NCBI GenBank assembly: GCA_951406725.2
Contig: OX597827.1
Span: forward strand, 69,068,001 to 69,132,000
From: Octopus vulgaris
Lineage: Eukaryota
DNA: 64,000 nt
Direction of reading: 5' to 3'
Shown: positions 38,286 to 62,844 of the stretch, piece after piece
Layout of the letters: each line of letters begins with the position of its first letter
How positions within the stretch are numbered: the first letter of the stretch is position 1
Translations under genes and position numbers: made by a program
The notes under the pieces: model-generated
What the model saw: the letters and a program-made list of their open reading frames with translations, nothing else
Told to the model about the DNA's origin: nothing
Database searches by the model: none

Positions 38286-38374
38286 CGTAACCCTCCACTG
38301 AAACGACTGCAGCATGCTATGGAGGATCAGATTTATCGTCTGCTGAGGAAGTCTCGTGTGATCACAAATATCAG
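38286..38374 (+). CDS. SMG8: SMG8 exon 8 (RNPPLKRLQHAMEDQIYRLLRKSRVITNI-S)
   Basis: tttcag / GTACAG. Human RRLQHALEDQIYRIFRKSRVLTN. Confidence 0.97.
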
Positions 38375-40669: not shown

Positions 40670-41420
40670 GTTAGACATGAGTGTGTTCTGTTCACTGACG
40701 AAACCAAGCTCATGTGGCTAAATAGAACTGATCGGCAGATGCGTCTACTTTGGAGATGAGCATCACCAATGTTTACGACATCAACAACAGGGTGGAAGAG
40801 TCATATTGTGGGAGGGGGTTAAAAGTGACTGCAGCCACCTACTGCGGTTTCCTGAAGGATCCCTGGCTGGAAGACATTCCACTGTCATTTCTAAGGAATC
40901 TCGTATTCATGCATGACAATGCTCCCTCCCACTCTGTTAAGACCAGCCAAACAGTACTCAGGGTCTTGCGGCATACAAGGTGAAAGGTCGATAGTGTGGC
41001 CACCAGCATCTCCTGATCTCAGCCCTATCGAAAATCTTTGATCCATCACAACATGTTTATGCTGATGGACACCAATTTACATCAAAAGATGTCTTATGAG
41101 TAACCGTCAAAGCTGCAGCAGAGGCAGTCCAACCTGGGTACAGCCGTCCAAGAATTTGGACCTGGAGATCTCCATTTCCAGCGACTTCGAGGGCCACCTC
41201 CCAGTGGTGTCGGGTGTCAACGAAGAGCCCACGACTACAACAAGATGACCAAAGTTTTTTTATTTTTTATCCAAGGTCTGGGGTATCCTGCCCCTAAGCC
41301 CTAGACCATCACCTAATCACCCTTACCCGTCTTGTTGCTTAACAGCAACAACAACCTGGGTGCATATAAGTAATTAACAGATTCTATGACTAATAGCACT
41401 TTTGAAGTTATCCGTCAAAA
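40670..41420 (+). mobile_element. Tc1/mariner transposase remnant, interrupted by a retro-insertion
   Basis: VLFTDET, FMHDNAPSH and WPPASPDLSPIENL motifs of the DDE domain, with frameshifts. Confidence 0.85.
41140..41351 (+). mobile_element. Short non-LTR retro-insertion with (CAA)n tail and 10-bp TSD
   Basis: caacctgggt at 41130-41139 and 41352-41361; ends aacagcaacaa. Confidence 0.7.
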
Positions 41421-43126
41421 TGGCACTCATATGGCTAAATAAATGTTATATTTATTATGATTTTCTGTTACATATATATTTAATATATGCTTAATGTGTA
41501 TAATTACCTTTCATTTTCTGGGGGGAAAAAAACAGTCTAGATGGACTATTTTCATTCAAAATCTATTAGTGTGGTTCACCCAAAAACTGAAGAATCTGAA
41601 ATAAAAAAAGGATGTTACACAGAATAATGAAAACATAACAATGGTGTTGCCATAGCGTGCAAACCAGCTGGGAAAAGTTTTATCATAATCGATTCACAGA
41701 GGACCGAGAAATCCGAAATTTCACTCCATAGCTATTAGCGTGGTTCTGGGTGTACATGTGTACAAACACATACACCGGTTTCTTTCAGTTTCCATTTATC
41801 AAATCCACTGACAAGGCTTTGGTTGGCCTGGGGTTATAGTAGAAGACCCTTTTGTAATGTTCTACACAGTGTGACTGAACCCGACCCTGTGGTTTGGAAG
41901 CAAGCTTCTTAACCATACAGCCATGCCTGCTCCTTATATATATGAAAGAGATGTGTGTGTATATATGGCTGTGTGGTAAGTAGCTTGCTTACAAACCACG
42001 TGGTTCCGGGTTCAGTCCCACTGCATGGCACCTTGGGCAAGTGTCTTCTACTATAGCCTCGGGCCGACCAAAGCCTTGTGAGTGGATTTGGTAGGCAGAA
42101 ACTGAAAGAAGCCCGTCGTATATATGTATATATATATGTGTGTGTGTATATGCTTGTGCATCTGTGTTTGTCCCCCTAACATCACTTGACAACCAATGCT
42201 GATATGTTCACGTCCCCGTCGCTCAACAGTTCAGCAAAAGAGACCAATAGAATAAGTCCTGGGGTCGGTTTGCTCGACTAAAGGTGGTGCTCCAGCATGG
42301 CCACAGTCAAAAGACTGAAACAAATAGAAGAACAAAAGAATCATCATTTAGCATCCATGTTGCCATGGTTTCAGAGCTGGTTGCCCTTCTTAATGCTAGT
42401 TGCTTTACATTGTGTACTGGGTGCATTTTTTCATGCCACCAGTACTACCGAGGCTACCATGTAGCTCACAAGTCTATGGAGCATGAGGGGCAGGGTTGGA
42501 TCCTCTTGTCAGATGGGGGTTAAGGTATGAGAGAAAAAGTTGGAGTAGAGCCGCTACTTGTACAGGCATTACATGGCTACTTGTATTTAGGGAAAAGAGT
42601 GAAAATGAACCAGTAGTATATACAAATATATATTACGGTGGCACATAAAAAGCACCATCCGATCTTGGCCGTTTGCCAGCCTCGTCTGGCACCTGTGCCA
42701 GTGGCACGTAAAAAGCACCCACTACACTCGTGGAGTGGTTGGCGTTAGGAAGGGCATCCAGCTGTAGAAACATTGCCAGATCAGACTGGGCCTGGTGCAG
42801 CCTTCTGGCTTCCCAGACCCCAGTTGCACCGTCCAACCCATGCCAGCATGGAAAGCAGACGCTAAACGATGATGATGATGTATATATATATATATATATA
42901 TAGGGTTGGCGTTAGGAAGGGCATCCAGCCGTAGAAACACTGCCAGATCAGACTGGGCCTGGTGCAGCCTTCTGGCTTCCCAGACCCCAGTTGCACCGTC
43001 CAACCCATGCTAGCATGGAAAGCGGATGCTAAATGATGATGATGATGATATATTTGTATATACAATAGTATATACAAGTAAGAGGGATATACAAATGTTT
43101 CTGATTATTTATTTTATTGTCTGCAG

Positions 43127-43260
43127 CAACAATTCCCTGTTTGCCGTGCCAGCCAACCAAGAGTTTGTGTTCATCAACAGCCGAAGATCCGACAGCAGTG
43201 ATCCTGTCGCCTACTTCCTCCTGCAGCTACGAAACACCCACACAGTAAATAAAGATGGAG
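43127..43260 (+). CDS. SMG8: SMG8 exon 9 (NNSLFAVPANQEFVFINSRRSDSSDPVAYFLLQLRNTHTVNKDG)
   Basis: ctgcag / GTAAGT. Human NCLFTVPANQAFVYI..DPVGMLLDQLR. Confidence 0.96.
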
Positions 43261-44336
43261 GTAAGTTTCTCGATGATGTTGTCTGTCTTTTACAAGGTAT
43301 CTGGAGAAAAAAAATGGTATTGGGACCGTTGCTATGGTAACAGAGCTAAAGTACATGGAATGAATCCACTTGGTACAGATTGACCTTGAAATCTGAGGAC
43401 GTAAACATACCAGCATCGGTTGTCAAGCGATGTTGGTGGGGACAAACACAGACACATACATATATACAATGGGCTTCTTTCAGTTTCCGTCTACCAAATC
43501 CACTCGCAAGGCTTTGGTCGGCCTGAGGCTATAGTAGAAGACACTTGCCCAAGGTGCCACGCAGTGGGACTGAACCCGGATCCATGTGGTTCGTAAGCAA
43601 GCTACTTTACCACACAGCCACATCAAAATTTTATCTTAAATTTTGTTCTAAACCAAACATTTGTAATGACTGTTATTTTACAAAATTTTTCATTATTTTC
43701 TAAACCAGCTGAAACAAAGACAGTGTCTGCCAGCATAAATATGGTAACAATAGGTTTATGCTGATGTTTGGAGCATAAATTAGCATACAATGTGACAGAA
43801 ATTTTTAATTTAGATCACTTTAAAATGAGCAGTTTGTAATACAGAATCAGAGGCAACCTCAGGTGGCAATCTTTTTGTGAAACTAAGTCATAGGGATGTA
43901 AACAAACCAACACCAGTTGTCAAGTTATGTGTGTGAGACACACAGAAACACAAACCTACGTATGTATGTATGTGTTTGTGTCTCCTTGATCGTACGCAAT
44001 AGTTGTAAACAAGCATCACCGCCACGCAAGTGGTGTCATTTGTTTCCTGTCTTGTGTGAAAATCTGTTTAACCACAGAAGATCTGCCTCACCAGATTCTG
44101 TCTGACTTGTGCAGGCATGGAAAATGGAAAGCTCATTGTGTGTGACAATGTGTGTGACCACCGCTTGACAACCAATGTTGGTCTGCTTACATCCCAATAA
44201 CCTAGCAGTTTAATAAGAGGGACCAATAGAATAAGTGCCATTAAGGATAATGAAATTTTGAGTGAATGTGTCTGATTTCTAATGTATTATTTTCATGCTT
44301 CATCATTTTTTTTGTTTTTTCTTTCCTTTTCCTCAG

Positions 44337-44548
44337 AACCTATGAAAGGTAAAAGCTATCAAACAAGTCGTCGCACCAACCAAGGTAGTCCCGGTCGTAC
44401 TGACAACCTCAGCCATACCACATCTCTAAATAAATGTTCATCGTCTGATAACAGCTTTCACGACTTCCTTTGGCCTCATATTGAGCTGGCATTCAATAAA
44501 GGTTTTGATGACAATGTCGGTAAAAGGCAAGTGCCAGCATTGTTCGAG
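44337..44548 (+). CDS. SMG8: SMG8 exon 10 (EPMKGKSYQTSRR...FHDFLWPHIELAFNKGFDDNVGKRQVPALFE)
   Basis: Strong pyrimidine tract with cctcag acceptor / GTGGGT. Human LREFLWQHVELVLSKKGFDDSVGRNPQPSHFE. Confidence 0.96.
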
Positions 44549-45327
44549 GTGGGTGCACAGATTTACATCATGTTTTAGCTTATTTCTATTGGTTTATTGT
44601 TTACTTTATTTCCTACTGCCCCAAATGGTTAATGCTTATCTTGACAGTGGGTTGGACAGATCTACAAGTTTACAGCTTCGGCTTAAGTTCATTTAAATAT
44701 TTTTAACTATAGGTGCAGGAGTGGCTGTGTGTTAAGAGGTCGACTTTGCCTTTCGTCCTTTTGGGGTCGACTTTGCCTTTCAGGGTTTTGGGGTTGACTT
44801 TGCCTTTCATGCTTTTGAGGTTAACTTTGCCTTTCATCCTTTCGGGGTCGATAAATCAAGTACCGGTTATGCACTGGGGTCGATGTAATTGACTTAATCC
44901 CTTTGTCTGTCCTTGTTTGTCCCCTCTATGTTTAGCTCCTTGTGGGCAATAAAGAAATAAGCTTGCTTCTTAATCATGCAGACTTGGGTTTAGTTCCACT
45001 GCTTGGCACCATAGACAAGTTTCTTGTACTGTAGCCCCAGACCGACCAAGAGCTTGTGAGCAAATTTCATCATCATCATTTAACTGCTTTCGTAGCTGAT
45101 ATGGTTTGGACAGTTTGACAGAAGCTGGTTAGGTAGAAGATTGTACCAGGCTTTGCTGTCTGTTTTGGCATGGTTTTTACAGCAGGATGCCCTTTCAAAT
45201 GCCAACCACTTACTCTACAGTGTGGATTGCATGCTTTTTATGTGGCACCAATACTGGTAGGGTCACCGAGTAATTTACACGACAAAGATTTGTTCAGCAG
45301 AAACTGAAAGAAGCCCATCATGTATAT

Positions 45328-45655
45328 GACTTGACTTGAGCAGCATTCACCCAGGGTGGGTTGAGCTAGCTTCATTCATCCTCAGTGCTGCATCTCTCAC
45401 AAACGCCAACCGGGCTTGGCGATTTGAGGCTAACGACAGCGTGATCTCCAACCACTCCTTATTCCAGCGGCGAACGCCGTAGACATGGAGGCTTAGGTTA
45501 GGTTCCAGATCAGCCTTGACTGTCATCAGCCAGGTTTTTCATTGTCCACCACATCGCTTTCGCCAACCCTGAAGGGAGCTGGAGCAATTGCTTCATAGAT
45601 GAATTCTCCTGGTTGACGATGGAGGGCATGACCCAGCCAATGCAGATGTCTCGTT
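45328..45655 (-). mobile_element. LINE 3' end (RHLHWLGHALHR..), second copy at 24660-24760(+)
   Basis: RTE-like WLGH motif, (CAAGT)n-type tail, shared 100-bp segment. Confidence 0.55.
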
Positions 45656-47399
45656 AAGATTTTATGTTTATACATTTGTATGTGATGGTCTTGACATCAT
45701 GTTATGGTTATAAATGAGCATCACCATCATACAAGCAATGGTGTTCATTTCCAGTCCGGCCTTTGGAGAAACAAATGTGGGATGTCAACAGAAAGTGTGT
45801 CCAGTTGCAGAAAATTTGCCACAGTAAAATTCCGTCTGACCCATGCAAGCATGGAAGACTAGACGTGAAATAAATGGTTTTTAATGCTGACATGGGTTGG
45901 ATGATTTGACCAGAACTGACAAATGCGAGAGCAGCATCAGCTTCCAGTCTGGTTTGGCTCAGTTTCTATGGCTGGATGCCCTTCCTCATGCCAACCTCCT
46001 TACAGTGTGTGCTGGGTGCTATAAGAAAATAGTGTATAAATATTAAGTGAAAAAGACCCTTAGATGGAAAATTCAAAGCTGCCAGTAGGACTTGAACCCA
46101 TTTCTTCTGTAAACATGACAGACATTCTATCATTGGACCAAAGCAGTTTTTTCAGTTTTTTAGAAGTTTTGCTCTGACTGAGAATTGTATGTTGTTGACA
46201 TCATACAAGTTTAGATATTTTAACTTTTTTTCCCTCCAAGAGTTATTTTTAAACCAGTGTCATGTCCAGTGTGGAATTTATATGCCAGAGAAACCAGGAA
46301 ACTGGCCCAAGCTCTAATTTAAGTTCTACCATTAAAGCAAGTTTATCTTTATCTATGACATACTTTGTGTGTGTGTTTCATTGAAAAGTGAGAAGTTACA
46401 GTTTTTTTCCTCCCCAGAAAAAAATCTCTTTATATACATAGTGTAATGTAAAACACAGTATACTTCAGACTTAGGCAAAAATGAAATCACTCCAGAAGTG
46501 AAGACAAGTAGCAGATATAGTATTTCACTACTTTTGCAGCTTGTCAGTGCCACTTTGGGAACAAGGTCAAATCAGCCAGTCTGAAGTATACATTGTATAA
46601 ACAATACACTGATTTGTAATGACGTTGCCAAGGCTGAATAAAATTGAACTCTGCAATAGATGCAGCTTTAGAATAAAATCTTTATCTAAGTGACAAACTT
46701 TACATATGCTTATTGTTGAAAAGCCTGAAGCTGTAGTTTTTGTCCTGAAAATATCCCTCTTTTGACATATTGTGTTAAAAAAATCCTATAGATATGCTTC
46801 GGAACTCATCATCATTTATTTTCTGATTTCCATGCTGGCATGGGTTGGATGGTTCTGTAGGAACTGGTAAGCTGGAGAGCTACACCAGGCTTCAATTGTC
46901 TGTTTTGGCATGGTTTCTATGGCTGGATGCCCTTCCTGATGCTGACCACTTTACACTGTGTACTGGGTGAATTTTCCGTGGCACCAGCACAGTTAACATC
47001 ATCAGTATTTAACGTCTGTGTTCTATGATATCATGGGTGGGATGGTACCACAAGAACTGGCTGGGCCAGAGCCTGCACCAGACTTTTGTGACTGTTTTGG
47101 CACGATTTTTTTTACGGTGCCATGCCCTTCCTAACACCAACCACTCAGCAGAGTGGACTTAGTACTTTTTATGTGGGACAAGCACAAGCAGGGTGAGTAG
47201 TGCTTTTTACACGGCACAAGTACAGGCAAGGTCAGTTTTGGCAGGGTTTTTACAGCTGGATGCCCTTCCAAACACCAACCACTTTACAGTGAGGACTGGG
47301 TGCTTTTAAGTGGCACCTGCACCAACTGGGTCTCCAAGTACTTGTAAGACAAAAACTTTTAAGAAGGGAGGAGGCATTGGAGGAGGAGGTGATGATGAA

Positions 47400-47625
47400 A
47401 AGCTGGCAGAAACGCTAGCACGCCGGGCGAAATGCTTAGCAGTATTTCGTCTGCCATTACATTCTGAGTTCAAATTCCGCTGAGGTCAACTTTGCCTTTC
47501 ATCTTTTCGGGGTCGATAAATTAAGTACCAGTTACGCACTGGGGTCGATATAATCGACTTAATCCGTTTGTCTGTCCTTGTTTGTCCTCTCTGTGTTTAG
47601 CCCCTTGTGGGTAGTAAAGAAATAG
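47400..47625 (+). mobile_element. SINE family B (representative copy; central domain resembles the MetaSINE-type motif)
   Basis: gagttcaaattcc B-box, then ctttgcctttcatcctttcggggtcgataaattaagtaccag. Copies at about 6733-6950, 9300-9700, 11885-12290 (tandem), 16750-16965(-), 21743-21980(-), 30903-31110, 35757-35990, 44735-44960, 50380-50550. Confidence 0.85.
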
Positions 47626-47927
47626 GTTGTAGTGAGACGATACAGGTGTCTTGCTGAAGAGGAAGTACAAGGTTACCCAAGAGAGAAAGATCAGGAATGA
47701 AGACAGAAACAGGTGTCAAACTAAAATTCTAAATTCAGGTATACCTCAACTTAGTTGGCAGTGGGTTCCAAAAAATAGCGTTAAACAAAAATACATTGTA
47801 AAAAATATAAAGATTTAATTCAAAATAATGCATGTTAAAGTATGCCTATACTTCAGATTTTTTTTTAAAAACCTTTATAGCCACACAAATAAATAATCTC
47901 TTTGTTCTTTTATCTCCTTCTCTTCAG

Positions 47928-48067
47928 ATGGCCACAGCTAGCACTTGGTTTACCTTGGCATCAAAGCTTTACCAATTATATTTTAATGAACTGTCAGATA
48001 CCAAAGCTCAAAGCTTCTTCAATAAGATGAGGACCAAGCTTGATGTAGACATTAGATTTTCAGAGAA
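47928..48067 (+). CDS. SMG8: SMG8 exon 11 (MATASTWFTLASKLYQLYFNE...KLDVDIRFSE-N)
   Basis: tcttcag / GTAAGG. Human WISAASKLYE..LDIDTKFSEN. Confidence 0.96.
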
Positions 48068-48244
48068 GTAAGGAGACATGTTATTACTTTATTTATTTTA
48101 AAAAATCTTTTTTTTTTCAGATTTTCCCCATCTCTCCATTTTTTTTTTTTGTTGTTCATCATCATCATCATTGTTTTAACATCCACTTTTCCATGTTTGC
48201 ATGGATCAGGTGGAATTTGTTGACTGAAACAACTAAAAGAATAT

Positions 48245-48890
48245 GCACTTAAAAATCCCCATCTGAACCTGGCTGATGCCAGTGCCTCCTGACTGGCCCC
48301 CATGCTAGTGGCACTTAAAAAGCACCGTCTGAACCTGGCTGATGGTAATGTCTCTTGACTGGCTCCCGTGCTTGTAACACTTAAAAATCCCCATCCGAAC
48401 GTGGCTGATGCCAGTGCCATGCTAGTGGCACTTAAAAAGCACCGTCTGAACCTGGCTGATGGTAATGTCTCTTGACTGGCTCCCGTGCTTGTAACACTTA
48501 AAAATCCCCATCTGAACCTGGCTGATGCCAGTGCCTCCTGACTGGCCCCCATGCTAGTGGCACTTAAAAAGCACCGTCTGAACCTGGCTGATGGTAATGT
48601 CTCTTGACTGGCTCCTGTGCTTGTAACACTTAAAAATCCCCATCCGAACGTGGCTGATGCCAGTGCCTCCTGACTGGCTCCCATGCTGGTGGCACTTAAA
48701 AAGCCCCATCCAAACATGGCTGATGCCAATGCCTCCTGACTGGCTCCCATGCTGGCGGCACTTAAAAAGCACCATCCAAACATGGTCAATGCCAGTGCCT
48801 CCTGACTGGCTTCCATGCTGGTGGCACTTGAAAATCCCCATCCGAACGTGGCCAATGCCAGTGCCGCCTGACTGGCACCTGTGCTGGTGG
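48245..48890 (+). repeat. ~60-bp minisatellite (about 11 units) in an RTE 3'UTR
   Basis: Unit cacttaaaaa[tccc/gcac]..gaacctggctgatg..tgactggc; source of the spurious 281-aa ORF. Related arrays at 55350-55640 and 62340-62660. Confidence 0.9.
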
Positions 48891-49487
48891 GATGCAAAGA
48901 TCACCCACTACACTCTCAGAGTGGTTGGTGTTAGGAAGGGCATCCAGCTGTAGACACCTTGCCAGATCAGATTCGAGCCTGGTGCAGCCACTGGCTTTCC
49001 AGTCCTCAGTCGAACCATCAAACCCATGCCAGTATGGAAAACGGACATTAAACAATGATGATGATGATATGCATTGGGTTTGACTGCCTATGTTCAGTCT
49101 GCTGTAGGACAAAGGTTTCAATATGTTCTCTACACCAATTATGGTTTGATACAGAGGCTGTGAATTTGAGCTTCAGATCCTACAGGTATGTTGAGCCTGT
49201 TCTTCCACACTGGCTCGACATGGCTTGGCAGCGGGGTGCAGTTTTTATACTCTTACCCTGGATTAGTTAAGTTGATTACACTGACCTCAATGCTCAACTG
49301 GTCCTTATTGTATCAAACCCGGGAGAATGAAAGGCAAAGTTGACCTCAGTGGAATTTGAACTCAGAACATAAGGACAAATGAAATACTGCCAGCTCATCA
49401 TATAGGGAGTGGCAAGCAGGCAGAATGATTCTGTAACTTTTTTCTGTTTAAGGATGTTGGCTCTGTGCAAAGAGGTGGTCCTTATTA

Positions 49488-49664
49488 CAGTTCTATATTT
49501 AAGAGATGAGAAATTGTGTACCTTATTTACATTATTTACATTCGACGGATATTTGTCCTCATCTTGTTTGTTATTAACACAACATTTCGGTTAGAGGGTA
49601 TATCAGCCGAAACGTTGTGTTAACAACAAACAAGATGAGGACAAATAACTGTCAAATGTAAATA
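49488..49664. mobile_element. Inverted-repeat Penelope-like remnant with ~15-bp target duplication
   Basis: Inverted arms of about 60 bp (49532-49592 / 49605-49665) containing CAGCCGAAACGTTGTGTT, flanked by aggtggtcc[t/a]tatta at 49473 and 49665. Confidence 0.65.
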
Positions 49665-50853
49665 AGGTGGTCCATATTAGTCTAACCTCTATTGTTTGAC
49701 TTGTATAGTATGTGAGGCTCTACATGGAGCTCGTTTTCTCTGATGAGAAGGGACAGTTGATATTATTGACACGCCAAGTACTGATGTCAATGATATCAAC
49801 TACTTTTCCGTCAAATTTCTGGACGTGTGCCTATGTAAGAAGCACAGCATCATGTGATGTTTTAAACATGACATAGGTTTCTTACACAGATGTTATTATC
49901 CAGAGACAAAGTTTTGTTATATTGATGTTGAACACTTGAAAGGCGCTTGGCCACTTTGCCATGAGGCTCGAATTTATTTTAAATGTGAAGATCTCTAAAT
50001 GATATGATTTTGTATTATGGAAACAAATGCCATCTCAAATAAATAGGCTTAATTAATTTAGGTTAGTCAAGTTTGGTTTAGTGATAAATTTAGTGTTTTC
50101 TAAAACGTTAGCACACTGGGCGAAATACTTAGCGGTATTTTGTCTGCCATCATGGCCGTTTGCCCCGATCGTGGCCGTTTGGCAGCCTTGTCTGGCACAT
50201 AAAAAGCACCCACTACACTCATGGAGTGGTTGGCATTAGGAAGGGCATCCAGCCGTAGAAACATTGCCAGATCAGACTGGGCCTGGTGCAGCCTTCTGGC
50301 TTCCCAGACCCCAGTTGCACCGTCCAACCCATGCCAGCATGGAAAGCGGATGCTAAACGATGATGATGATGATGATGATTACGTTCTGAGTTCAAATTCC
50401 ACCGAGGTCGACTTTGCCTTTCATCCTTTTGGGGTCGATAAATTAAGTACCAGTTACGCACTGGGGTCAATGTAATCAACTTAATCCCTTGGTCTGTCCT
50501 TGTTTGTCCCCTCTATGTTTAGCCCCTTGTGGGCAATAAAGAAATAAGAAATGCTATGGAAGCCAGTTGTATTTTCTATGTATCTTTGTGTTTGTCCCAC
50601 CCCCTAGTTGATAGCCAGTGTTGGTTTGTTTACTTCCCCATAAGTCAGCAATGTGACAGCTGGATGCCCTTCCAAATAAGTACTGCAGGTGATATAACTA
50701 ATCTCTTTAAGGAGGTAGCACTGTATGGTTGCAGTCCAATGATTGAAACCAGTAACAGAATAAACGAATACAGCGTTTCATATGTTGTTAATTTTGTTGT
50801 AATCATTTTGTTGTTGCTAATCTTATATACTTTGTTGTTGTTTTCCTCCACAG

Positions 50854-50941
50854 TCGTTGTAACAAAGTACTGCCTGTTGCAGAGACTGCATACCAAGAAG
50901 GCCTACCAACCCACTACACAAATAGCTACCATCTCTCCAAG
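50854..50941 (+). CDS. SMG8: SMG8 exon 12 (RCNKVLPVAETAYQEGLPTHYTNSYHLSK)
   Basis: ccacag / GTGAGT. Human RCQKALPMAHSAYQSNLPHNYT. Confidence 0.96.
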
Positions 50942-51321
50942 GTGAGTTTTGTTATCAATGATTTCTTTATAGATTTTGTACATTTACCAGATGGAGAAGT
51001 AAGTCTGAAACAAAAAAATATTTGGTATGACTTCAGCATTTAAATCAGCCATACATATTGTACCTGTTTTGTGTTCAATCCAGCCAGATGTGGCCTCTCA
51101 CACTTACCATATTCTTTTACTTTCTTTTATGCTTTTACTTGCTTCAATCATTTGACTGTGGCCATGCTGGAGCACCGCCTTTAGTCGAACAACTCGACCC
51201 CCAGGACCTTATTCCTTGCAAGCCTAGTACTTATTCTATCAGTCTCTTTTGCCAAACCGCTAAGTTACGGGGATGTGAACACACCAACATCGGTTGTCAA
51301 GCGATGGTGGGAGGACAAACA

Positions 51322-51358
<37 letters not shown>

Positions 51359-52884
51359 GACGGGCTTCTTTCAGTTTCCATCTACCAAATTCACTCACAA
51401 GGCTTTGGTCAGACCGAGGCTATAGTAGAAAACACTTGCCCAAGGTGCCACGCAGTGGGACTGAACCCAGAGCAATGTGGTTGGTAAGCAAGCTACTTAC
51501 CACACAGTCACTCCTACGCCTATGATATCGTTTTAAAAATAATCAATCACATCATCAAAACATCAAAGCTATGAGATAATGCATAATTAATTCAAAACAA
51601 CATGAATAACAAGCATTATATTTGACAGAGTAATCTGAGCGAGGTCGTTGCCAGTGCCGCTGGACTGGCTCCTGTGCAGGTGGCACATAAAAAGGACCAT
51701 TTGAGCGTGGCCGTTGCCAGTACCGGCTGACTGGCCCTCGTGCCGGTGACACGTAAAAGCACCCACTACACTCTCAGAGTGGTTGGCATTAGGAAGGGCA
51801 TCCAGCTGTAGAAACTCTGCCAGATCAAGATTGGAGCCTGGTGCAGTTCCTCAGTTTACCAGTTTTCAGTCAAATCGTCCAACCCATGCTAGCATGGAAA
51901 GCAAACGTTAAACGATGATGATGATGATGATGATGATGACTTCACCATTTAAATCGGCCATATTTAGCCAATATACTGTACCTGTTTTGTGTTCAATCCA
52001 GCCAGATGTGGCCTCTCACACTTACCATATGATATTGTTTTAAATATAGTCAATCACATCATCAAAATATCAAAGCTATGAGATAATGCATAGTTAATTA
52101 AACGATGATGATGATGATGTTAAACACTGCTCAAACTAGTTCTACTCCAAATCTATCAAAGTTCTCACTCTATACCTTACTTCAGCCCTTTATTCCCTAT
52201 GGAGTGTATGCCACTGACAACTTTTCTCCACTGTTTTTTATTCTGGCCTATCCACTCTGATGAAAGACCTTCCTCTCCCAGGTCTTGTTGGTTTTGAACT
52301 GCCATCAAAGCTCCTGTAACTTTGCTCTTTTTCTATGTAGAGATCTTGGCTCTATGCAGAGGTGGCCTATATTTGTCTAACTGTTATCATTTGACTTATC
52401 TAGCATGGGAAGTCATATCAGAAGCTTGCATTCCAATGCATAGCTCTCAAAATTCTTAATCAGTAATTCAGCAAAAGAGAACTTACTGACCAAATACCAG
52501 GCTTGAAGCAAAAATAAGTATTGGAGTCAACCTGTTTCACTAAAACCCTTCAAGGTTTTGCTTTCACATGACTGAAATGGACTGGATCTTGTGGTATTTA
52601 GTTAGTTACAGCTCGAATAATTTTTCTTAGTGCTTAGTTCAGAGGGATGGGCAGCACCCATAACTCTTTAAAGAGGCTCAAGGACAGGTCAGAAGGTAGG
52701 AGGTTGATATTACACCAAAGATTTGGCCCCACCAAATGCTTGCAATGGAGTGAACTCTGCTACAGGCTCCCCCAAGAATTTGATGCCTGGAATCAAACTC
52801 GGAATCTTGGGGTTAGTAGCCCGCACTCTTAACCACTATGCCATATGCCCATGGGTATATGAATAATAATAATAATAATAATAA

Positions 52885-53057
52885 TATCGAAAAATACGTT
52901 AGGAATGAGAACCCAGGTTCGAAATTCCCCAAGACACCTGATGGAGGCTGGTTGGTATATCAGCCGAAACATTGTGTTCACAACAAACAAGATGAGGAGA
53001 AATATCCATCAAATGTAAACAATGAACATAATTCCTCATCTCTTAAATATAGAACTG
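52885..53057 (+). mobile_element. Penelope-like pLTR remnant with degenerate hammerhead (52933-52978)
   Basis: GACAC CTGATGG A GGCTG [10 nt] CAGCC GAAA CATT GTGTT, following (AAT)n. Same family as 49488-49664. Confidence 0.6.
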
Positions 53058-53224
53058 AAATAACTGCCAGTTTGCTTTCTATATTACTATTTCAAAGCTG
53101 ACACCATCCTAACTGCAGTTTTACCCCAGATATCTCTCTCTCTCTCTCTCTCTCTCTCGGCCATCATCTCCAAACAAACCAATCCAATCTCTTTGTTATT
53201 CTTCCTCCTTTTTTTCCATTTCAG

Positions 53225-53321
53225 TTCAACCAAGCCAAGAGGGTTTTTGCTCAGTATGCTCGAGGTGCTGCATATAAGAAATACCTGTGTCAGTTGGAAG
53301 AGGCTTGCGAGAAGTGGTGGA
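53225..53321 (+). pseudogene. Partial tandem duplicate of SMG8 exon 13 (first 97 nt) with its own acceptor
   Basis: Identical to 53498-53594 and preceded by a copy of the same intron end (53085-53224 vs 53369-53497). Has no donor and runs into a SINE fragment. Confidence 0.9.
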
Positions 53322-53497
53322 CGCAGTGGGACTTAACCCAAAACCATGTAGCTAGGAAGCAAGCTCCCTACTATTTCAAAGCTGACACTATCCTAACTGC
53401 AGTATTACTCCAGATCTCTCTCTCTCTCTCAGCCATCATCTCGAAACAAACCAATCCAATCTCTTTGTTATTCTACCTTTCTTTTTTTTCATTTCAG

Positions 53498-53660
53498 TTC
53501 AACCAAGCCAAGAGGGTTTTTGCTCAGTATGCTCGAGGTGCTGCATATAAGAAATACCTGTGTCAGTTGGAAGAGGCTTGCGAGAAGTGGTGGAAGAGTG
53601 GGAGGCAGTTGTGTGAAGAGATCAACTATGAGTCTAACCGGACAGCACTGTGTGAACCCG
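53498..53660 (+). CDS. SMG8: SMG8 exon 13 (FNQAKRVFAQYARGAAYKKYLCQLEEACEKWWKSGRQLCEEI [+7 nt] SLTGQHCVNP); frameshifted as assembled
   Basis: tttcag / GTGAGG. Human ALRVYSQHARGPAFHKY..CYKFWSNGHQLCEERSLTDQHCVHK. The exon is 163 nt between two phase-0 introns; removing aactatg (53624-53630) restores frame and homology. Confidence 0.9.
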
Positions 53661-54185
53661 GTGAGGAGTTTTTTCTAATTTCATATATTTAAGGTTTCTA
53701 TACACCGCATATACTCGACTATAAGACGCACCCCTGACTTGCAAGGTTCAAATTGGGAATTTTATCATTGACCTGATTATATCACAGTGACCTTTTTGAT
53801 GCTGGAGGTCAAAGTTCGATTAGGGATCATGCCAACATAGTTGTTGTTCAGTAACCATGAGGGAGTTCTTGATGTTTCATATACATCTATTCATTGGAAA
53901 GGAAAAAAGCAATATGGCCAAAGAAAGAAAAAGAAAAAAATTCAACGGCACACATGCAGTAACATTACACTTCGTATCGAAGGCTCCAATGAAGTTATAT
54001 AGAGTGTCATTGAAGCACTCAACTATGAGTCCATCTTATAGCAGAAACAACTGTAAGCTAATGAATTTCATAATATAATAATCATTTATTCCTTTGTCAT
54101 CTTTCTTTCTTACACACACACACACACACACACAGTAATTCAAAATGAACAGTACAGAGAACATGCTTGTGAGTACTTGAGCTAA

Positions 54186-54224
<39 letters not shown>

Positions 54225-54236
54225 TCTAAGAGTGAA

Positions 54237-54545
54237 GGCGCATGGCTCAGTGGTTAGAGCGTCGAGCTTACGATCGTGAGGTTGTGAGTTCGAATCCCGG
54301 ACCGGGCTGCGTGTTGTGTTCTTGAGCAAGACACTTTATTTCACGTTGCTCCAGTTCACTCAGCTGTAGAAATGAGTTGCGACATCACTGATGCCAAGCT
54401 GTATCGGCCCCTTTGCCTTTCCCTTGGATAACACTGATGGCGTGGAGAGGGGAGGCCGATATGCATGGGCGACTGCTGGTCTTCCATAAACAACCTTGCC
54501 CGGACTTGTCCAGGAAACTTTCTAGGTGCAATCCCATGGTCTGTG
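54237..54545 (+). mobile_element. tRNA-derived SINE family D (CORE-like)
   Basis: tggctcagtgg A box, gagttcgaatccc B box, gttcttgagcaagacactt domain. Partial relatives at 2020-2090 and 28200-28435(-). Confidence 0.8.
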
Positions 54546-54797
54546 TCGTGACCAAAGGGCGTCTCAGATATTCCAAGAAAGTTAGAGGTTGTGAATCCAA
54601 CCATGTTGATTTATGGAAGATCTTGATCGTACATCTTGTCTCTGTTGTTATTATTTGAGATCATGGTTATATTTCCATTTAACTCCTATATTTGTGAATG
54701 TTATTTGGTGGTGTTTGCATAACACGGCTGGTAAGTCTCTCTTTCTCTCTCCTCCCACTTGCAACCGTTTATATGACCTTCGACCTTGTTTTGTCAG

Positions 54798-54938
54798 TTA
54801 CATCGTCTTCCCGATGCCATTGAAACTGAGGAGAACAAGCACCTCCCTGTGATGTATCACTCTAGCCAGCTGAAGACAAAAGCTGCCTGCAACTGTGGAC
54901 GGAAACAGGCTGACAAAGAAGACCCCTTCAACCATGAG
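54798..54938 (+). CDS. SMG8: SMG8 exon 14 (LHRLPDAIETEENKHLPVMYHSSQLKTKAACNCGRKQADKEDPFNHE)
   Basis: ttgtcag / GTAACT. Human PVLYHNSRARSTGACNCGRKQAPRDDPF. Confidence 0.97.
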
Positions 54939-56265
54939 GTAACTTTTACTGATCTTATGTTTCATTCCTTATCTTTCTGTCACTCTCTGTCACACTATAA
55001 CATTCCATCACCCTCACCAGTGCCTCATCCCTGCTCAAAGATTCTTTGTCTTGTAAGTTACTTGGTCACCTTGCAAGTGCTGATTCCACATAAAACGCAT
55101 CCAGTCCACACTGTGAAGTTGTTGGCATTTGAACGGGCATCTAGCTGTAAAAACCATGCCAAAATGACCTCACCTGTGCTGGTGCCATGAAAAATGTATT
55201 CGGTCCACTCTGGGGAGTGCTTGGTGTTAGGAAAGGCATCCAGCCATTAAAAACTATGCCAAAACAGATGCAGGCTCCAATCTGATCTAGCAAGGTTTCT
55301 GCAGCTGGATGCCCTTCCTAATGCAGGCCACTCCAGAGTGTAGTGGGTGCTTTTTACATGCCACTGGCATGTGGGCCAGTCAGGCGGCACTGGCATCAAT
55401 CACGCTCAAATGATGCTTTATACATGCCACTGGCACGGGGGCCAGTCAGGCGGCACAGGCATCAACCATGCTCAAATGGTGTTTTTTACATGCCACTGGC
55501 ACGGGAGCCAGTCAGGCGGCACTGGCATCAACCATGCTCAAATGGTGTTTTTTACATTCCACTGGTATGGGAGCCAGTCAGGTGGCATTGGTATCAACCA
55601 CACACAAATGGTGCTTTTTATGTGCCACTGACACAGGAACCAGTCTGGCAGTTAAAAAAATGTTTATTATTTGGAGGCACAAGTGTCGCTGTGTGGAAAG
55701 GAGCTTGCTTCCCAACCATGATTGTATGCTCAACACTCTAACCACTAAGCCATGCACCTTCACACACACACGCATAGTCTTAAACTTTGATTACCTGCTC
55801 GTAGGTAACAATACCTTCACCATCATCATCGTTTAATGTCCGTTTTCCATGCTAGCATGGGTTTGACGGTTCAACCGAGGTCTAGGAAGCCAGGAGGCTG
55901 CACCAATCTGATCTGGCAGTGTTTCTACAGCTGGATGCCCTTCCTAACGCCTACCACTCCGTGAGTGTAGTGGGTGCTTTTTACGTGCCACCGGCACAGG
56001 GGCCAGAGGAGGCTGGCAAATGGCCATGATCGGTTGGTGCGTTTACGTGTCACCGACACGGACGCTAGTCAGGCGGCGCTGGCATCTGCCACATTCGGAC
56101 GGTGCTTTTAACGTGTTACCAGCACAGGTATCTTAACTACAATTTCCATTTGATTTTCATTTTGATGTTGGTGTTAACGTACTTGACTCAATAGGTCTCC
56201 TCAAGAACAGCAGGTTGAATACAAATGTATTGATTTGGAATATTTTCTTTTAATTTCATTGTCAG

Positions 56266-56467
56266 GCAGCAAATTTTGAATTCTATGACAGCATGGAGAA
56301 AAGCTGCTGTTGCAGTTTGCAACATGTTGATCTACCGGTGTTTAAACCAGGGACCGACAGCTTTCAACCATCTCCTCTTGTCAAACCCAGCAACGTCAAT
56401 CTTCGAGAAGGTTCTAAAAGCGACATCACACACGGAATTGGAAACCTCAGCTTAGCACTAAGTCTTG
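56266..56467 (+). CDS. SMG8: SMG8 exon 15 (AANFEFYDSMEKSCCCSLQHVDLPVFKPGT...NLSLALSL-G)
   Basis: ttgtcag / GTAAGG. Human AANYDFYQLLEEKCCGKLDHINFPVFEPS..SLSLALSLG. Confidence 0.96.
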
Positions 56468-57066
56468 GTAAGGTTCTAGCCTCATCACATCTGAAACAGG
56501 TCACTGTATTTGTCACACTTTTGTATCATGTTTTTGCTCCCTGGCCCTTTAGCATTCGGATTACTCTGTTAAATGTAATACTTATTCCCATTGTTTCCAG
56601 TTAATCGTGCATTATTTTGTATCTTCAAAATTTCAATAGGTGCAGGAGTGGCTGTGTGGTAAGCAGCTTGCTTACCAACCACATGGTTCCAGGTTCAGTC
56701 CCACTGTATGGCACCTTCGGCAAGTGTCTTCTACTATAGCCTCGGGCCGACCAAAGCCTTGTGAGTGAATTTGGTAGACGGAAACTGAAAGAAGCTCGTT
56801 GTATATACGTATATATATATATATATATACGTACATGTGTGTGTGTGTGTCTGTATTTGTGCCCTGCAACATCACTTGACAACCGATGCTGGTGTGTTTA
56901 CGTCCCTGTAACTTAGCAGTTCGGCAAAAGAGAACGAAAGAAAAAGTTCTAGGCTTACAAAGAATAAGTCCTGGGGTCGATTTGCTCGACTAAAGGCGGT
57001 GCTCCAGCATGGCCGCAGTCAAATGACTGAAACAAGTAACGAGTAAAGTTAGAGAAAGATAGTGTG

Positions 57067-57107
<41 letters not shown>

Positions 57108-57158
57108 CATATGTATGCACATGTATATGTAATAAGATGTTTATTTTGTCTGCTGCAG

Positions 57159-57263
57159 GTCAGTCAGGAAGCAGTGATCTTTTTGCATCCACTAATATGA
57201 ATACAGAGAGTCTTGCTGAAGCCAGCAACAGCCACCCACAAGAGATCCGTTTAACACAGCCAG
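57159..57263 (+). CDS. SMG8: SMG8 exon 16 (QSGSSDLFASTNMNTESLAEASNSHPQEIRLTQP)
   Basis: ctgcag / GTAAAT, phase 1-1. Continues the LSLG-QS motif. Confidence 0.9.
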
Positions 57264-57605
57264 GTAAATAAAAATGAGAAGAAAAAAAAGCAACTCTTTT
57301 CCTTGCCATTTTTAAACAACCCCTATTGCATGAGAAAACCACAACATTTTACAATACATAGTGAGTGGGTTTCCTGTTCTTTGTAATGTATCCTGGTTTG
57401 TTATCTGGAGATTGAGATCCTAGGTAGGATGAAGTATGAACCAGAAAGTCCACAGTGGATCTAATGTATTGTTTGTGTTTTCATTCTTTTATTGGTTTCA
57501 GTCATCGGACTGTGGCTGATGTGTCTCTATAATCTTTTGGTTTTATAAAAGTGTGGTCAATGCTTCATTTTTAGATATTTTGTGTGTGAAACCTTTATTT
57601 CTAAA

Positions 57606-58005
57606 TCTATATATATACAAAGCTGAAGTTGTCTGTGTATGACAGGTTTTGGTAGCCTTCAACTAACACTATCTCCTCTGAGACCCTGCGACGCAAGTTG
57701 ACCAAAATTGAGAGTATGATAGAAGAAGGCTTGCTCTTTCTTTCGTAGAAGAAAAAATTCAAATCGGACCATGTTAAAACCAAAAATTATTTACATCAAA
57801 ACGGTGCTTTTTTTCTATGAAAAACCCTATTTCTTACGATTTTTTTTACTGCTGTGTCGCCATTTTTCGGTGTATATCAACCAGAAAAATGCTTACTTAA
57901 AGAGAATAACAAGCTACATAATGCAAAATTTTTACTTTTCAAAAATTCCAATTCTAAAGGGTCGAAAAGTAAACAAGCCCAAGCAACGCTGGGCTATACC
58001 ACTAA
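57606..58005 (+). mobile_element. Non-autonomous Helitron-like element
   Basis: A|TC-tatatata 5' end, subterminal hairpin agccc..gggct (57976-57995), CTAA|T 3' end, no TSD. Similar 5' ends at about 4564 and 25718. Confidence 0.7.
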
Positions 58006-59129
58006 TGTATTCTATACAGACTTATGATGTATGGGAGATCTTGATTGTACATCTTGTCTCTGTTGTTATTATTTGAGACCATGGTTATATTTCCAGTTAA
58101 GTCCTAAGTTTTTCCGGATTCTTTGTGAATGTTATTTGATGGTGTTTGCTGAAAGCTTTTGTAGAATTTGCACAACACTTTATAAGGTTGTTAGAACCTT
58201 TTCCTTGCAGGTTTGTAGCCAATATCCATTACTGACTTGTTCACTTATGAGAGAAATGTTTTCGTTCAAAAATTTATCATTTGACTGGCTCTTGTGCTGG
58301 TAGCACGTAAAAAGCACCATCCGAACGTGGTCAGTGCCAGCCCCCTCTGGCTCCTGTGCCGGTGGCTTGTAAAAAGCACCTACTATGCTCTCGGAGTAGT
58401 TGACATTAGGAAGGGCATCTAGCTGTAGAAATACTGCCAGAATCAGATAGGAGCCTAGTGCAGCCTCCTGGCTTCCTAGTCCCCAGTTGAACCGTCCAAC
58501 CTATGCCAGCATGGAAAACAAACATTAAACAATGATGATGATGACTGACATTGCTATAGGCCTTCCGCCTTCTGACCAAGGCTACACACCTACAACCCTA
58601 GACAGGGTAGCTACTATATAAGTAGTTTTCTGAAACCTTTTAATCTTCTAGTGTAGCTGGCAATCAGGGAACTAGACAGGATGTTAGACTTACAGATGCC
58701 TGCTCAGTATTCTGCCTGTTCCAGCACTCAATTCTCAGAAGAGGAGAGTTTGACAATAAATTAAAACTCGTTATCTTCAATTTGGTTTTTTTTATGCCTG
58801 TCCTCACCTGGGATCATAAATGTTGGGTAATGACCAAAAGAGTATAATCCCAAATATATGCAGCTGAAATTTAAGTTTTCCTGAAGGATCTTTGGATTAA
58901 CTTTACTTAACAGGATGCATGGCTTGGAGATCAGGGATGAGATGCTACTTCTCCACATTGAGAGGTCAGAGCTCTGCTATTAGAGTCTTGTAATTAGAAT
59001 GTCACAAGAAAGACTCACAAAATACATTCTTCAGCCAAACCAACCTGCAGGAGACCTAGGGGTAGACCAAGAATTAGAGAAGTTTGGATAATATCCATAA
59101 TCTCAGTTGGTCACATTTGAGAATCCAAT

Positions 59130-59462
59130 CTGAAGTTGCTTTTGATAGGGCCCTGTGGAGGAGGTGCTTGAGATCTATACCCCCCACATGATCCTTCCAT
59201 GAATAGTCGGTGAAGATGAGGATGGTTGCTTTTTATAGGGCCCTCTGGAGGAGGTGCTTGAGATCTATACCCCTGCATGACCCTTTCAGGAATAGTGGGT
59301 GAAGATGATGACAGTTGCTTTTGATAGGGCCCTGTGAAGAAGGTGCTTTAGATCTCTACCCACTTTACCCTATATCCCTGCATGACCTTTTCAGGAATAG
59401 TGGGTGAAGATGACTATGGTTGCTTTTGATAGGGCCCTGCAGAGGAGGTGCCTAAGATCTAC
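59130..59462 (+). repeat. Tandem repeat, ~90-110-bp unit x4
   Basis: gttgcttttgatagggccctgtggaggaggtgcttgagatct recurs four times. Confidence 0.85.
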
Positions 59463-59550
59463 AAGATTAATGAGCAAAGAAGATAGATGGATATTTAGAT
59501 GACTTTTTAACTTTCATGTATTGTTTTACTACTTTGTCTTTCCTCTGTAG

Positions 59551-59700
59551 AAGTCGAGCGAGTATTTGACCGTCAACATTCAACAACAGAATATCTACCT
59601 GATATGATTAACTCAGATTCTCCATCTGGACTGTTGCCTAAGTTTTCATCATGGTCACTGTGTGCACTGGGCAAGACCAGCTCCTATGTCCACTCTCAAG
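59551..59700 (+). CDS. SMG8: SMG8 exon 17 (VERVFDRQHSTTEYLPDMINSDSPSGLLPKFSSWSLCALGKTSSYVHSQ)
   Basis: ctgtag / GTGAGG. Human DRQASTVEYLPGMLHSNCPKGLLPKFSSWSLVKLG. Confidence 0.97.
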
Positions 59701-59944
59701 GTGAGGAAACCAATTACTAATTTTTTTCTTTTTGGTTATACTATCACTTTTTATTTACATTTATTTCTTGCTGTGTGTGTGTGTGCACAAATACATGTGT
59801 GTATGTAAGTACAATTGTTCTACATATGTGTGTGTGTTATACTGAAAGATCTTTGGCTATGCACTTAAGAAGTTTGCACATGGCTTTGGGTTCAGTCCCA
59901 CTGCACAGCCAGCATCCTGGGCAAGTGTCTCTTACTATAGCCCT

Positions 59945-59983
<39 letters not shown>

Positions 59984-61387
59984 AATAAAATTTCACCTCC
60001 CAAACTTGGTTCATTTCCACTGTATGGTACCTTGTACTATAGTCTTCTGCTATAGCCCTGGGTTAACCAAAACCTTGCGTGTGGATTTGGCAGAAGGAAA
60101 CTGAAAGAAGCCTATCGTGTATATGTGTGTGTGTGTGTCCATATTTGTGTTTTAGTTGACACCACTTAAAAACTAGTTATGTTTGGTAACTTAGTGGTTT
60201 TACAGAGATGGATAAAACAAGTCCTAAATTGGATTAAATACCGGGGTTGATCTGATTGACAAAATACCCAGCACTAATGACTTAAACCAATATAAGAACA
60301 AACACCCTCACAGGCATTTGGGTTTCATGAATTTATAGCTGAGGCATTGTTTTACAGCTGGGTGCCCTTTCTGTTGCAAACAACAGCTTTGCAAGTAAGG
60401 GATATCTTATTCCACATGTCGTTGGAGATGCAAAGCCAATGGATGACCCATCGACAGGAGTACTGACAGCAACATCACCACCCATACCTGAGCAGTTTTC
60501 AGAGAAGCATAAATGTAAACCTACACACATGGCTTCAGTTTCCATTTACCAAATCCAGAAGGTTTTGGAAACAAAATATTTTTTCTTTTATGATAATTTA
60601 CTTCTTGTCATTAATTTTCTTCCACACTTTTTGCAATGTTGAAGTGTATCAAACCTTCAATTAACTACCAACTATAATCATCATCATCGTTTAACGTCTG
60701 TTTTCCATGCTAGCATGGGTTGGACGGTTCGACCAGAGTCTGGGAAGCCAGGAGGCTGCGCCAGGCTCCAGTCTGATCTGGCAGTGTTTCTACAGCTGGA
60801 TGCCCTTCCTAACGCCAACCACTCTGTGAGTGTAGTGGGTGCTTTTTACGTGCCGCAGGCACAGGAGCCAGAGGCGGCTGGCAAACGGCCATGATCAGCT
60901 GGTGCTTTTACATGTCACCGACACAGACGCCAGTCAGGCGGCGCTGGCATCTGCCACGTTCGGATGGTGCTTTTAACGTGTCACTTAACTACAATTTCCA
61001 TCTGATTTTCATTTTGATGTTGGTGTTAACGTACTTGACTCAATAGGTCTCCTCAAGAACAGCGGGTCACTACGATCCAAGGTTATAATATCATCATCAT
61101 CGGTTAACGTCTGCTTTCCATGCTAGCATGAGTTGGACGATTTTGACTGAGGGCTGGCAAACCAGATGGTTGCACCAGGTTCCAATCCTGATTTGGCAGA
61201 GTTTCTACAGCTGGATGCCCTTCCTAACGCCAACCACTCCGAGTGGGTGCTTTTTACGGGCAACCACCTCGCTCAAATCCTTTTATATGTATCTATTTCT
61301 GTATCCGTTTCAATATATGATCCCTGATTAAATTTATTGCAATAAAATGTCCCTCTGTACCTATATCTATCTTTGAATCTGTCTTAG

Positions 61388-61522
61388 GTTTGGACCTTCC
61401 TGGTTTTTTCCACGGCAGTAATTTCCTATTGCCCTGGGATATCTCGCTGCGTATGGAGAAAGACAAATGGCCTGGTCTGGGAGAAGCAAACAAAAAGACC
61501 AAACAAAAAAGGATTCAAAAAG
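61388..61522 (+). CDS. SMG8: SMG8 exon 18 (LDLPGFFHGSNFLLPWDISLRMEKDKWPGLGEANKKTKQKRIQK)
   Basis: tcttag / GTAACT. Human GLDQQGFIPGTNYLMPWDI. Confidence 0.95.
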
Positions 61523-61720
61523 GTAACTCTTTTACTCTTGTACTTGTTTCAATCATTTGACTGTGGCCATGCTGCAGCATCGCCTTTAGTCGAGCAAATC
61601 GACCCCAGGACTCATTCCTTGTAAGCCTGGTACTAATTGTACCGGGCTCTTTTGCCGAACCGCCAAGTTACGGGGACGTAACCACACCACCATCGGTTGT
61701 CAAGCAATGTTGGGCGGAGA

Positions 61721-61763
<43 letters not shown>

Positions 61764-62722
61764 CCATATATACGACGGGCTTCTTTCAGTTTCCATCTAT
61801 CAAATCCACTCACAAGGCTTTGGTCGGCCCAAAGCTATAGTAGAAGACACTTACCCAAGGTGCCATGCAGTGGGACTGAACCTGGAATCATGTGGTTCGT
61901 AAGCAAGCTACTTACCACACAGCCACTCTTTCACCTATAAGTGACATTTCAGAATTATTTTGAGAACCTGAGTTAATTATGAAACAGTTGTAACCAGTAT
62001 GGAAATAGTTGAACAATTTGTTTCTCACATCTGGTTTTTTGAGAGAGAAAGACACACACACATGCATGTGGGTATGTAATACTATTTCTTTACCTTGGCA
62101 CCTTGTGATAATTGTAAATGAGTGTCACCTTTTATACAAGAGGTGTCCTTTGTTTACAGTCTTCCATAAAAGCATGTTTGGTTACAGGGAAACATTACCT
62201 TACTTGATCTGGCAGAGTTTCTACAGCTGAATGCCCTTCCTAACGCCAACCACTCCGAGAGTGTTGTGGGTGCTTTTTACGTGCCACCGGCACTGGGGCC
62301 AGAGGGGACTGGCAAACGGCTATGATCATTGCCAGTCAGGCAGTACTGGCAACGACCTCGCTCGAATCTTTTTACACATGCCACCAGCGCAGGTGCCAGT
62401 AAGGTGACGTTGGTAACGATCACACTCAAATGGTGCCCTTTTACGTGCCACCGGCACGGAAGCCAGTTGGCTGCTCTGGTAACAATCATGCTTGGCTGGT
62501 GCTCTTGGCACCCTACTAGCACGGGCACAAGTGCCAGTAAGGTGACGCTGGTAACGATCACACTCGAATGGTGCCTTTTATGTGCCACTGGCACAGAAGC
62601 CGGTTAGCTGCTCTGTCAATGATCACATTCGTATGGTGCTCTTTGTACCCCGCTAGCTTGGATGCCAGTCATCGAATTTTTTTGTATATGTATGTATAAA
62701 AGTTTTTTGCTGTTGCTTTCAG

Positions 62723-62844
62723 AGTCTGGTGAAGTGAATGTTCGTGTGTACATTGGTGTTGAATATGAATGCCCACGAGGCCACAGATTCTTCAGCAGCG
62801 GCCCAGACAAACTAGTTAAAATGTCCAGTTCCAGTAACGTGAAG
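62723..62844 (+). CDS. SMG8: SMG8 exon 19 (SGEVNVRVYIGVEYECPRGHRFFSSGPDKLVKMSSSSNVK)
   Basis: ctttcag / GTAAAT. Human RAFVGFEYEDSRGRRFMCSGPDKVMK. Confidence 0.96.

What the first reader, a model, noticed from the sequence alone, without database searches (positions are those of the whole stretch)
53621..54031. 7-nt frameshift in SMG8 exon 13 that looks templated from 400 bp downstream
Seen: the exon reads ...TGT GAA GAG ATC [aactatg] AGT CTA ACC GGA CAG CAC TGT GTG AAC CCG|GT. Without the 7 nt it gives CEEISLTGQHCVNP (human CEERSLTDQHCVHK) and phase 0 into exon 14. With them the frame shifts and hits TGA at 54821-54823 (about 492 aa), with several junctions downstream. The 13-mer tcaactatgagtc spanning the insert (53622-53634) recurs exactly at 54019-54031, with tca and agtc microhomologies on each side. 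Established: that geometry is typical of polymerase-theta templated insertions. Inference: this is either a natural loss-of-function allele of an NMD regulator (whose mRNA would itself be an NMD target and would lose the C-terminal half) or a local assembly/consensus error. The other 18 exons are intact, so this is not an old pseudogene.
Basis: partly seen in the sequence, partly recalled or inferred. Interest (0 to 1): 0.78.

Follow-up and report, generated by a model that had tools for sequence, protein, structure and literature searches.

The report
Likely assembly error in octopus SMG8
This octopus genome assembly has seven extra letters that break the mRNA quality-control gene SMG8, but public sequence from five other samples lacks them, so they are likely a software error made while merging two versions of the chromosome rather than a real mutation.

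Summary
SMG8 exon 13 (53498-53660) carries 7 extra nt, the frame shifts to TGA at 54821 (496 aa, not about 492), and the 13-mer recurs 397 nt downstream, far above chance. But 5 of 5 public runs that cover the site lack the insert, two as spliced transcripts, and octopus, argonaut and cuttlefish relatives are intact. It differs from the true copy at 8 of 128 intron letters and 0 of 97 exon letters, like a second allele, and joins a truncated high-copy repeat. Full-length copies of that repeat measure 361-408 nt, about the 397-nt offset. Best reading (0.68): the sequenced animal was likely heterozygous for a roughly 400-nt insertion, and out-of-register merging of the two alleles wrote both oddities into the consensus. 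Rival (0.26): a real, private loss-of-function allele. Polymerase-theta templates typically lie within 30 bp, so 397 nt is atypical. No run could be shown to be the source animal, so the decisive read test remains open. Either way this is ordinary; the practical point is a wrongly split gene model.

The parts
22083..62844 (+). SMG8 coding exons 1-19 (aa 1-773); three further exons lie beyond the window
   Evidence: tblastn with O. sinensis P0001; exons 1-14 refined to GT-AG boundaries; last three exons in L014
53498..53660 (+). SMG8 exon 13, 163 nt in the assembly, 156 nt without the insert
   Evidence: spliced contigs of X4 and X5 cover 53496-53660
53624..53630 (+). 7-nt insert (placement 53624-53630 or 53625-53631) that shifts the frame
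   Evidence: left out in X1, X3, X4, X8 and X1, X3, X5
54019..54031 (+). Exact 13-nt donor match, 397 nt downstream; 18 of 21 letters match over 54011-54031
   Evidence: (family D8)
53964..54095 (.). High-copy interspersed repeat that holds the donor 13-mer
   Evidence: 42 matches from 40 scored of 1561 candidates, about 80% identity; 353 exact 13-mers; context of 10 loci
53085..53321 (+). Upstream partial copy: 140 nt of intron 12 end, acceptor, and first 97 nt of exon 13; looks like a second allele
   Evidence: 8 of 128 intron mismatches, 0 of 97 exon; only these two copies in the genome
53322..53368 (-). 47-nt remnant of a high-copy repeat (SINE label recalled, not tested) between the two copies
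   Evidence: 22 other copies found in the window and loci; hundreds of contigs laid here
53369..53497 (+). End of intron 12 belonging to the true exon 13
   Evidence: X1 contig runs unbroken 53341-53771 and X3 contig 53415-53673
54798..54938 (+). Exon 14, with the out-of-frame TGA at 54821-54823

Best explanation
The 7-nt insert is in the assembly but is likely a consensus error, likely made where the sequenced animal's two chromosomes differed by a repeat insertion of about 400 nt in intron 12. Shown: the assembly holds an allele-like partial copy of exon 13, a 47-nt stump of the repeat, the true exon with the insert, and a donor 397 nt downstream. Inferred: reads of the allele without the repeat were laid about 400 nt out of register on the allele with it. 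Where the shifted sequence loosely resembled the backbone, the consensus would have crossed over: once for 237 nt (the false partial duplication) and once for 7 nt (the insert). The real gene in this species would then be intact.
For: (1) 5 of 5 runs with cover lack the 7 nt at full contig depth: X1, X3, X4, X8 and X5; 5 samples, 4 studies. X5's contig continues into exon 12 and exon 14 sequence with no extra exon (table 7). (2) P0001, P0002, P0003, P0006, P0007 and P0008 all read CEE(I/V)SLTGQHC. (3) The upstream copy differs at 8 of 128 intron and 0 of 97 exon letters (Fisher p=0.011). About 6% intron divergence matches differences seen among public contigs of the same species label (7 in 116 for X3, 25 in 347 for X8, 4 in 315 for X1). 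(4) X1, X3 and X8 contigs run unbroken through the stretch that is duplicated in the assembly; an identical second copy should break a word-graph contig (my inference). (5) 11 of 22 other copies of the stump's family are full length at 361-408 nt, median 385; the register arithmetic needs about 408 nt. (6) Both switch points are fuzzy alignments, not clean junctions: 1 exact letter at 53321/53322 with loose similarity on both sides, and a 3-nt mismatch inside the left flank of the donor match. (7) False duplications and polishing errors at heterozygous sites are documented (10.1101/2020.05.22.110833, passages; PMC8092372, passages).
Against: No run could be shown to be the assembled animal (best share of words 0.63), so absence in others does not exclude a private allele. 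Contigs drop rare variants and can keep one allele of a heterozygote. The second allele and the full-length insertion were not seen in any run; they are inferred. The length match is after the fact and sits at the top of the range, and the other 11 of 22 copies are shorter (86-305 nt). The duplication's own offset is 273-284 nt, not 397, so one simple shift does not give both lesions. I did not reproduce the error with any assembler. A 7-nt templated insert is not the usual 1-nt long-read error (own knowledge).
Confidence: 0.68

Rival explanations
1. A real, private, probably heterozygous loss-of-function allele. A break or stalled fork in exon 13 would have primed on the repeat 397 nt downstream, copied 7-10 nt and re-annealed (theta-type end joining or replication template switching). 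The same or a second event would have copied 237 nt from the other homologue. The mRNA would be an NMD target giving a 496-aa stub.
For: The donor match is not chance. Insert size and direct orientation fit templated insertions of 3-30 bp (PMC7165422, passages and section 7). The source animal's reads were not tested. SMG8 disease in people is recessive (PMC9090808, passages) and complete loss in human cells impairs NMD only modestly (PMC12988323, abstract), so a carrier would likely be viable.
Against: Templates are typically within 30 bp and distal ones were under 0.1% of repair. The insert is absent from 5 of 5 covering runs. It needs two rare lesions within 300 nt, one of them copied from a 6%-divergent allele, with fuzzy junctions.
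Confidence: 0.26
2. Both lesions are real and compensate each other: the upstream partial copy is spliced in as an extra exon, exon 13 is read in a shifted but open frame, and the 7-nt insert restores the native frame.
For: Three GT donors in the upstream copy (53313, 53316, 53325) give an open frame through exon 14. Donors at 53347 and 53401 (replacing exon 13) and skipping exon 13 are also in frame.
Against: These donors score -3.3 to 2.5 against 7.4 to 12.7 for the 14 real donors on a matrix trained on those same real donors. The product would gain 45-46 foreign residues and lose 10-13 conserved ones. Spliced contigs of X4 and X5 show the plain exon, though those animals need not carry the allele.
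Confidence: 0.03
3. The insert is untemplated, or came from another of the genome's copies of the repeat, and the nearby match is a coincidence.
For: The 13-mer stands 353 times in the genome, and 10 of 10 loci inspected continue into the same repeat sequence by eye.
Against: At that density another copy within 500 nt has probability about 1.3e-4, and simulations give 1.6e-4 to 4.5e-4.
Confidence: 0.03

Closest known systems
False heterotype duplication and polishing mosaics in diploid assemblies (10.1101/2020.05.22.110833; PMC8092372)
   Same: Two allele-like copies in tandem, can be misread as an exon duplication, arises at heterozygous sites, and can break a coding frame.
   Different: Here the duplication is only 237 nt, inside a contig with no gap, and comes with a 7-nt insert copied from one repeat-length downstream; the passages I read do not describe that exact signature.
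Polymerase-theta templated insertions (TINS; PMC7165422)
   Same: 3-30 bp insert, direct repeat of flanking DNA, short microhomologies on both sides.
   Different: Template 397 nt away against typically within 30 bp; presence in real molecules not shown; enzyme dependence untestable here.
SMG8 loss-of-function alleles in people (recessive; PMC9090808 passages) and SMG8 knockout cells (PMC12988323 abstract)
   Same: A premature stop in the middle of SMG8 with downstream junctions.
   Different: Those are shown in reads and patients; this one is seen only in one assembly and in two protein records that follow it.

Membership tests
SMG8 (PF10220) | Pfam Smg8_Smg9 match and collinear exons with a full-length orthologue | tested here: met
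Polymerase-theta templated insertion | Insert of 3-30 bp repeated in flanking DNA with short microhomologies | tested here: met
   7 nt, direct, 6 nt of flanking identity
Polymerase-theta templated insertion | Template typically within about 30 bp of the break | tested here: not met
   397 nt against PMC7165422 section 7
Polymerase-theta templated insertion | Exists in real DNA molecules | tested here: inconclusive
   absent in 5 of 5 covering runs, none shown to be the source animal
Polymerase-theta templated insertion | Depends on POLQ | not testable with these tools
   needs genetics
False heterotype duplication / consensus mosaic | Tandem copies differ like alleles | tested here: met
   8 of 128 intron, 0 of 97 exon mismatches; comparable to differences among public contigs
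False heterotype duplication / consensus mosaic | Independent data show a single copy and no lesion | tested here: met
   unbroken contigs through the duplicated stretch in X1, X3, X8; insert left out in X1, X3, X4, X5, X8
False heterotype duplication / consensus mosaic | Heterozygous structural variant at the site | tested here: inconclusive
   repeat stump present and family length fits; neither full allele seen
False heterotype duplication / consensus mosaic | Junction k-mers missing from the source animal's own reads | not testable with these tools
   no run shown to be the source
NMD-target premature stop | Stop more than 50-55 nt upstream of a later exon junction (rule recalled) | tested here: met
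   115 nt to the end of exon 14, 8 coding junctions downstream; applies only if the allele is real
Old pseudogene | Several disabling changes and amino-acid decay | tested here: not met
   1 difference in residues 1-476, 0 in 505-888 against O. sinensis

The most novel reading that the evidence does not exclude
A wild octopus carries a real complex SMG8 allele made by multi-step template switching: 237 nt copied from the other homologue plus 7 nt copied from a repeat 397 nt away. The two lesions cancel by splicing, so an in-frame SMG8 with about 45 foreign residues is made and escapes the very decay pathway it regulates.
Probability: 0.03. Interest if true: 0.65.

Novelty: not a real feature. 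Interest (0 to 1): 0.12.

Why it matters
If it is an error, it matters for curation: public Octopus vulgaris records split SMG8 into a 496-aa and a 384-aa protein at exactly this place (P0005, P0004), which could be misread as gene fission or loss of an NMD regulator. It also warns that a 'templated' insert in a collapsed assembly of a heterozygous animal can mimic a DNA-repair scar. If it is a real heterozygous allele, it is one private recessive variant of a non-essential NMD modulator, with an unusually distant template. Neither would surprise a specialist much.

Tried and rejected
No RNA holder was on record in the run search; this says nothing on expression. X7 gave no cover of exon 13 (about 76% read) and is not counted. 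No run gave cover over 53166-53319, the upstream copy, and the tool skipped 53056-53166 as repeats; a part without cover is not used as evidence. X1's contig has only 28 letters left of the 53368/53369 junction, under the 31 needed to count as bridging, so it is a hint only. Two look-ups of earlier scan notes returned nothing. A paper search for SMG8 with octopus found 0; that search alone backs 'not in print', within this library. My first exon chain had wrong boundaries and was replaced. Frame rescue by other donors in or just after exon 13 (0 of 10) or other acceptors near exon 14 (0 of 3) failed. A second apparent duplication in intron 12 (51027-51595 against 51936-52102) is a high-copy repeat and was dropped. 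A second genomic SMG8 copy that could explain relaxed selection was not found; only a 67-nt fragment on C11 (searched with exon 13 only). Supplements of the cited papers were not read; the distance distribution figure of PMC7165422 was seen only through its legend.

Full report
The window is octopus DNA (G000, contig C14). The gene is SMG8: three translated stretches match Pfam PF10220 (3 of 4 given; the fourth was the shifted frame), and exon 13 matches human SMG8 residues 527-570. The O. sinensis protein P0001 (888 aa) maps to 19 exons in the window and three more just beyond it.

Exon 13 runs 53498-53660. Leaving out 7 nt from 53624 or 53625 restores the O. sinensis peptide; with them the frame ends at TGA 54821-54823 after 496 residues. 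The 13-mer spanning the insert stands at 53622 and 54019 only, inside a 21-nt match of 86%. Simulation puts such a match within 500 nt at 1.6e-4 for this site (32 of 200,000) and 4.5e-4 for random sites. The donor is part of a high-copy repeat: 353 exact copies against 44 for the control, the same downstream context in 10 of 10 loci by eye, and 1561 candidates for the surrounding 136 nt. Even so, a copy this close is not chance (1.3e-4). The rest of the protein shows no decay: 1 difference in residues 1-476 and none in 505-888.

Is it in real molecules? I laid 6 of the 24 runs listed, all of organism A and all kept as contigs. Five cover the site and all five leave out the 7 nt at their full contig depth: X1 16.5, X3 59.8, X4 21.7, X8 3.8 and X5 19.8. 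X7 has no cover. X4 and X5 hold long contigs that fit only 53496-53660, and X5's loose ends are the end of exon 12 and the start of exon 14, so these are spliced transcripts of the intact allele. All six other cephalopod proteins read (P0001-P0003, P0006-P0008) are intact here. Two public O. vulgaris records are split at this point, 496 aa and 384 aa, but their contig has the same length as C14, so they are very likely read from the same assembly and are not independent. The limit is plain: no run holds more than 63% of the words, none can be shown to be the assembled animal, and contigs can hide one allele.

53085-53321 is a copy of the last 140 nt of intron 12 and the first 97 nt of exon 13, present only here. 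It differs from the true copy at 8 of 128 aligned intron letters and 0 of 97 exon letters (p=0.011). An old dead copy should have drifted in the exon too; two alleles would look like this, and 6% is within what public contigs differ by in the next intron (1-7%). Contigs of X1, X3 and X8 run unbroken through the duplicated stretch, which argues for one copy in those animals (inference from how word-graph contigs break). Between the copies lie 47 nt of a very abundant repeat; I recall this family as an octopus SINE but did not test that label. The switch from exon copy to repeat has 1 exact shared letter but loose similarity on both sides.

This suggests one mechanism. If one chromosome carries a full-length copy of the repeat here and the other lacks it, reads of the shorter allele laid without the gap sit one repeat-length out of register. 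Of 22 other copies measured to the same end, 11 are full length at 361-408 nt and 11 are shorter, 86-305 nt. The register needed to bring the donor under the insert site is 408 nt. A consensus that crosses between the two where they loosely resemble each other would write a partial duplication and a short insert copied from downstream, as seen. False duplications and mosaics at heterozygous sites are described as common (10.1101/2020.05.22.110833, passages), and polishing can add frameshifts there (PMC8092372, passages). Shown: the anatomy, the allele-like divergence, the absence in five runs. Inferred: the heterozygous insertion, the misregistration and the software step. Against it: neither full allele was seen, the length fit is after the fact and at the top of the range, and the duplication's offset (273-284 nt) differs from 397.

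The main rival is a real private allele. Size and orientation fit polymerase-theta templated insertions, but those templates are typically within 30 bp, with distal ones under 0.1% of repair (PMC7165422, passages and first part of section 7). It also needs a second rare lesion copied from the other homologue. A carrier would likely be viable: human SMG8 disease is recessive (PMC9090808, passages) and knockout cells lose little NMD (PMC12988323, abstract). If real, the stop lies 115 nt before the next junction and would likely trigger NMD (rule recalled).

The boldest reading not excluded is compensation by splicing: three donors in the upstream copy give an open frame through the shifted exon. 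They are weak (-1.7 to 1.4 against 7.4-12.7 on a matrix trained on the real donors) and the protein would gain 45-46 foreign residues and lose 10-13 native ones. I give it 0.03.

Verdict: observation confirmed; likely an assembly consensus error (0.68), possibly a private loss-of-function allele (0.26). A search for SMG8 with octopus found no paper in the held library. Interest is low; the useful outcome is a flag on a split gene model.

Noticed in passing
L003 (G000:C11:6054370-6054436, minus strand): A 67-nt, 90% copy of the 5' end of SMG8 exon 13 beside a copy of the same repeat family as the stump. X1 holds a 236-nt contig fitting 53498-53556 with 4 other letters, so it is probably real and old.
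   Followed up: partly
window:53964-54095: The donor repeat often stands as inverted pairs about 100-230 nt apart elsewhere in the genome, like a small inverted-repeat element; the 13-mer lies in a short hairpin-like motif, and the window's copy lacks about 5 nt right after it compared with other copies (table 4).
   Followed up: partly
window:53581: Synonymous C>T (Cys codon) in X1, X4 and X5, C in X3, X8 and both window copies, while the window's next intron is closest to X1 and X4: a mosaic or recombinant haplotype.
   Followed up: no
window:51027-52102: One copy of a high-copy repeat is split by a roughly 400-nt insertion and an unsplit copy lies just downstream.
   Followed up: yes
window:48245-48890 and 55346-55650: Arrays with a 66-nt period in SMG8 introns.
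   Followed up: no
P0002: The public cuttlefish SMG8 record (766 aa) ends in a low-complexity tail unlike the 901-aa P0003, which suggests a mis-predicted C-terminus.
   Followed up: no
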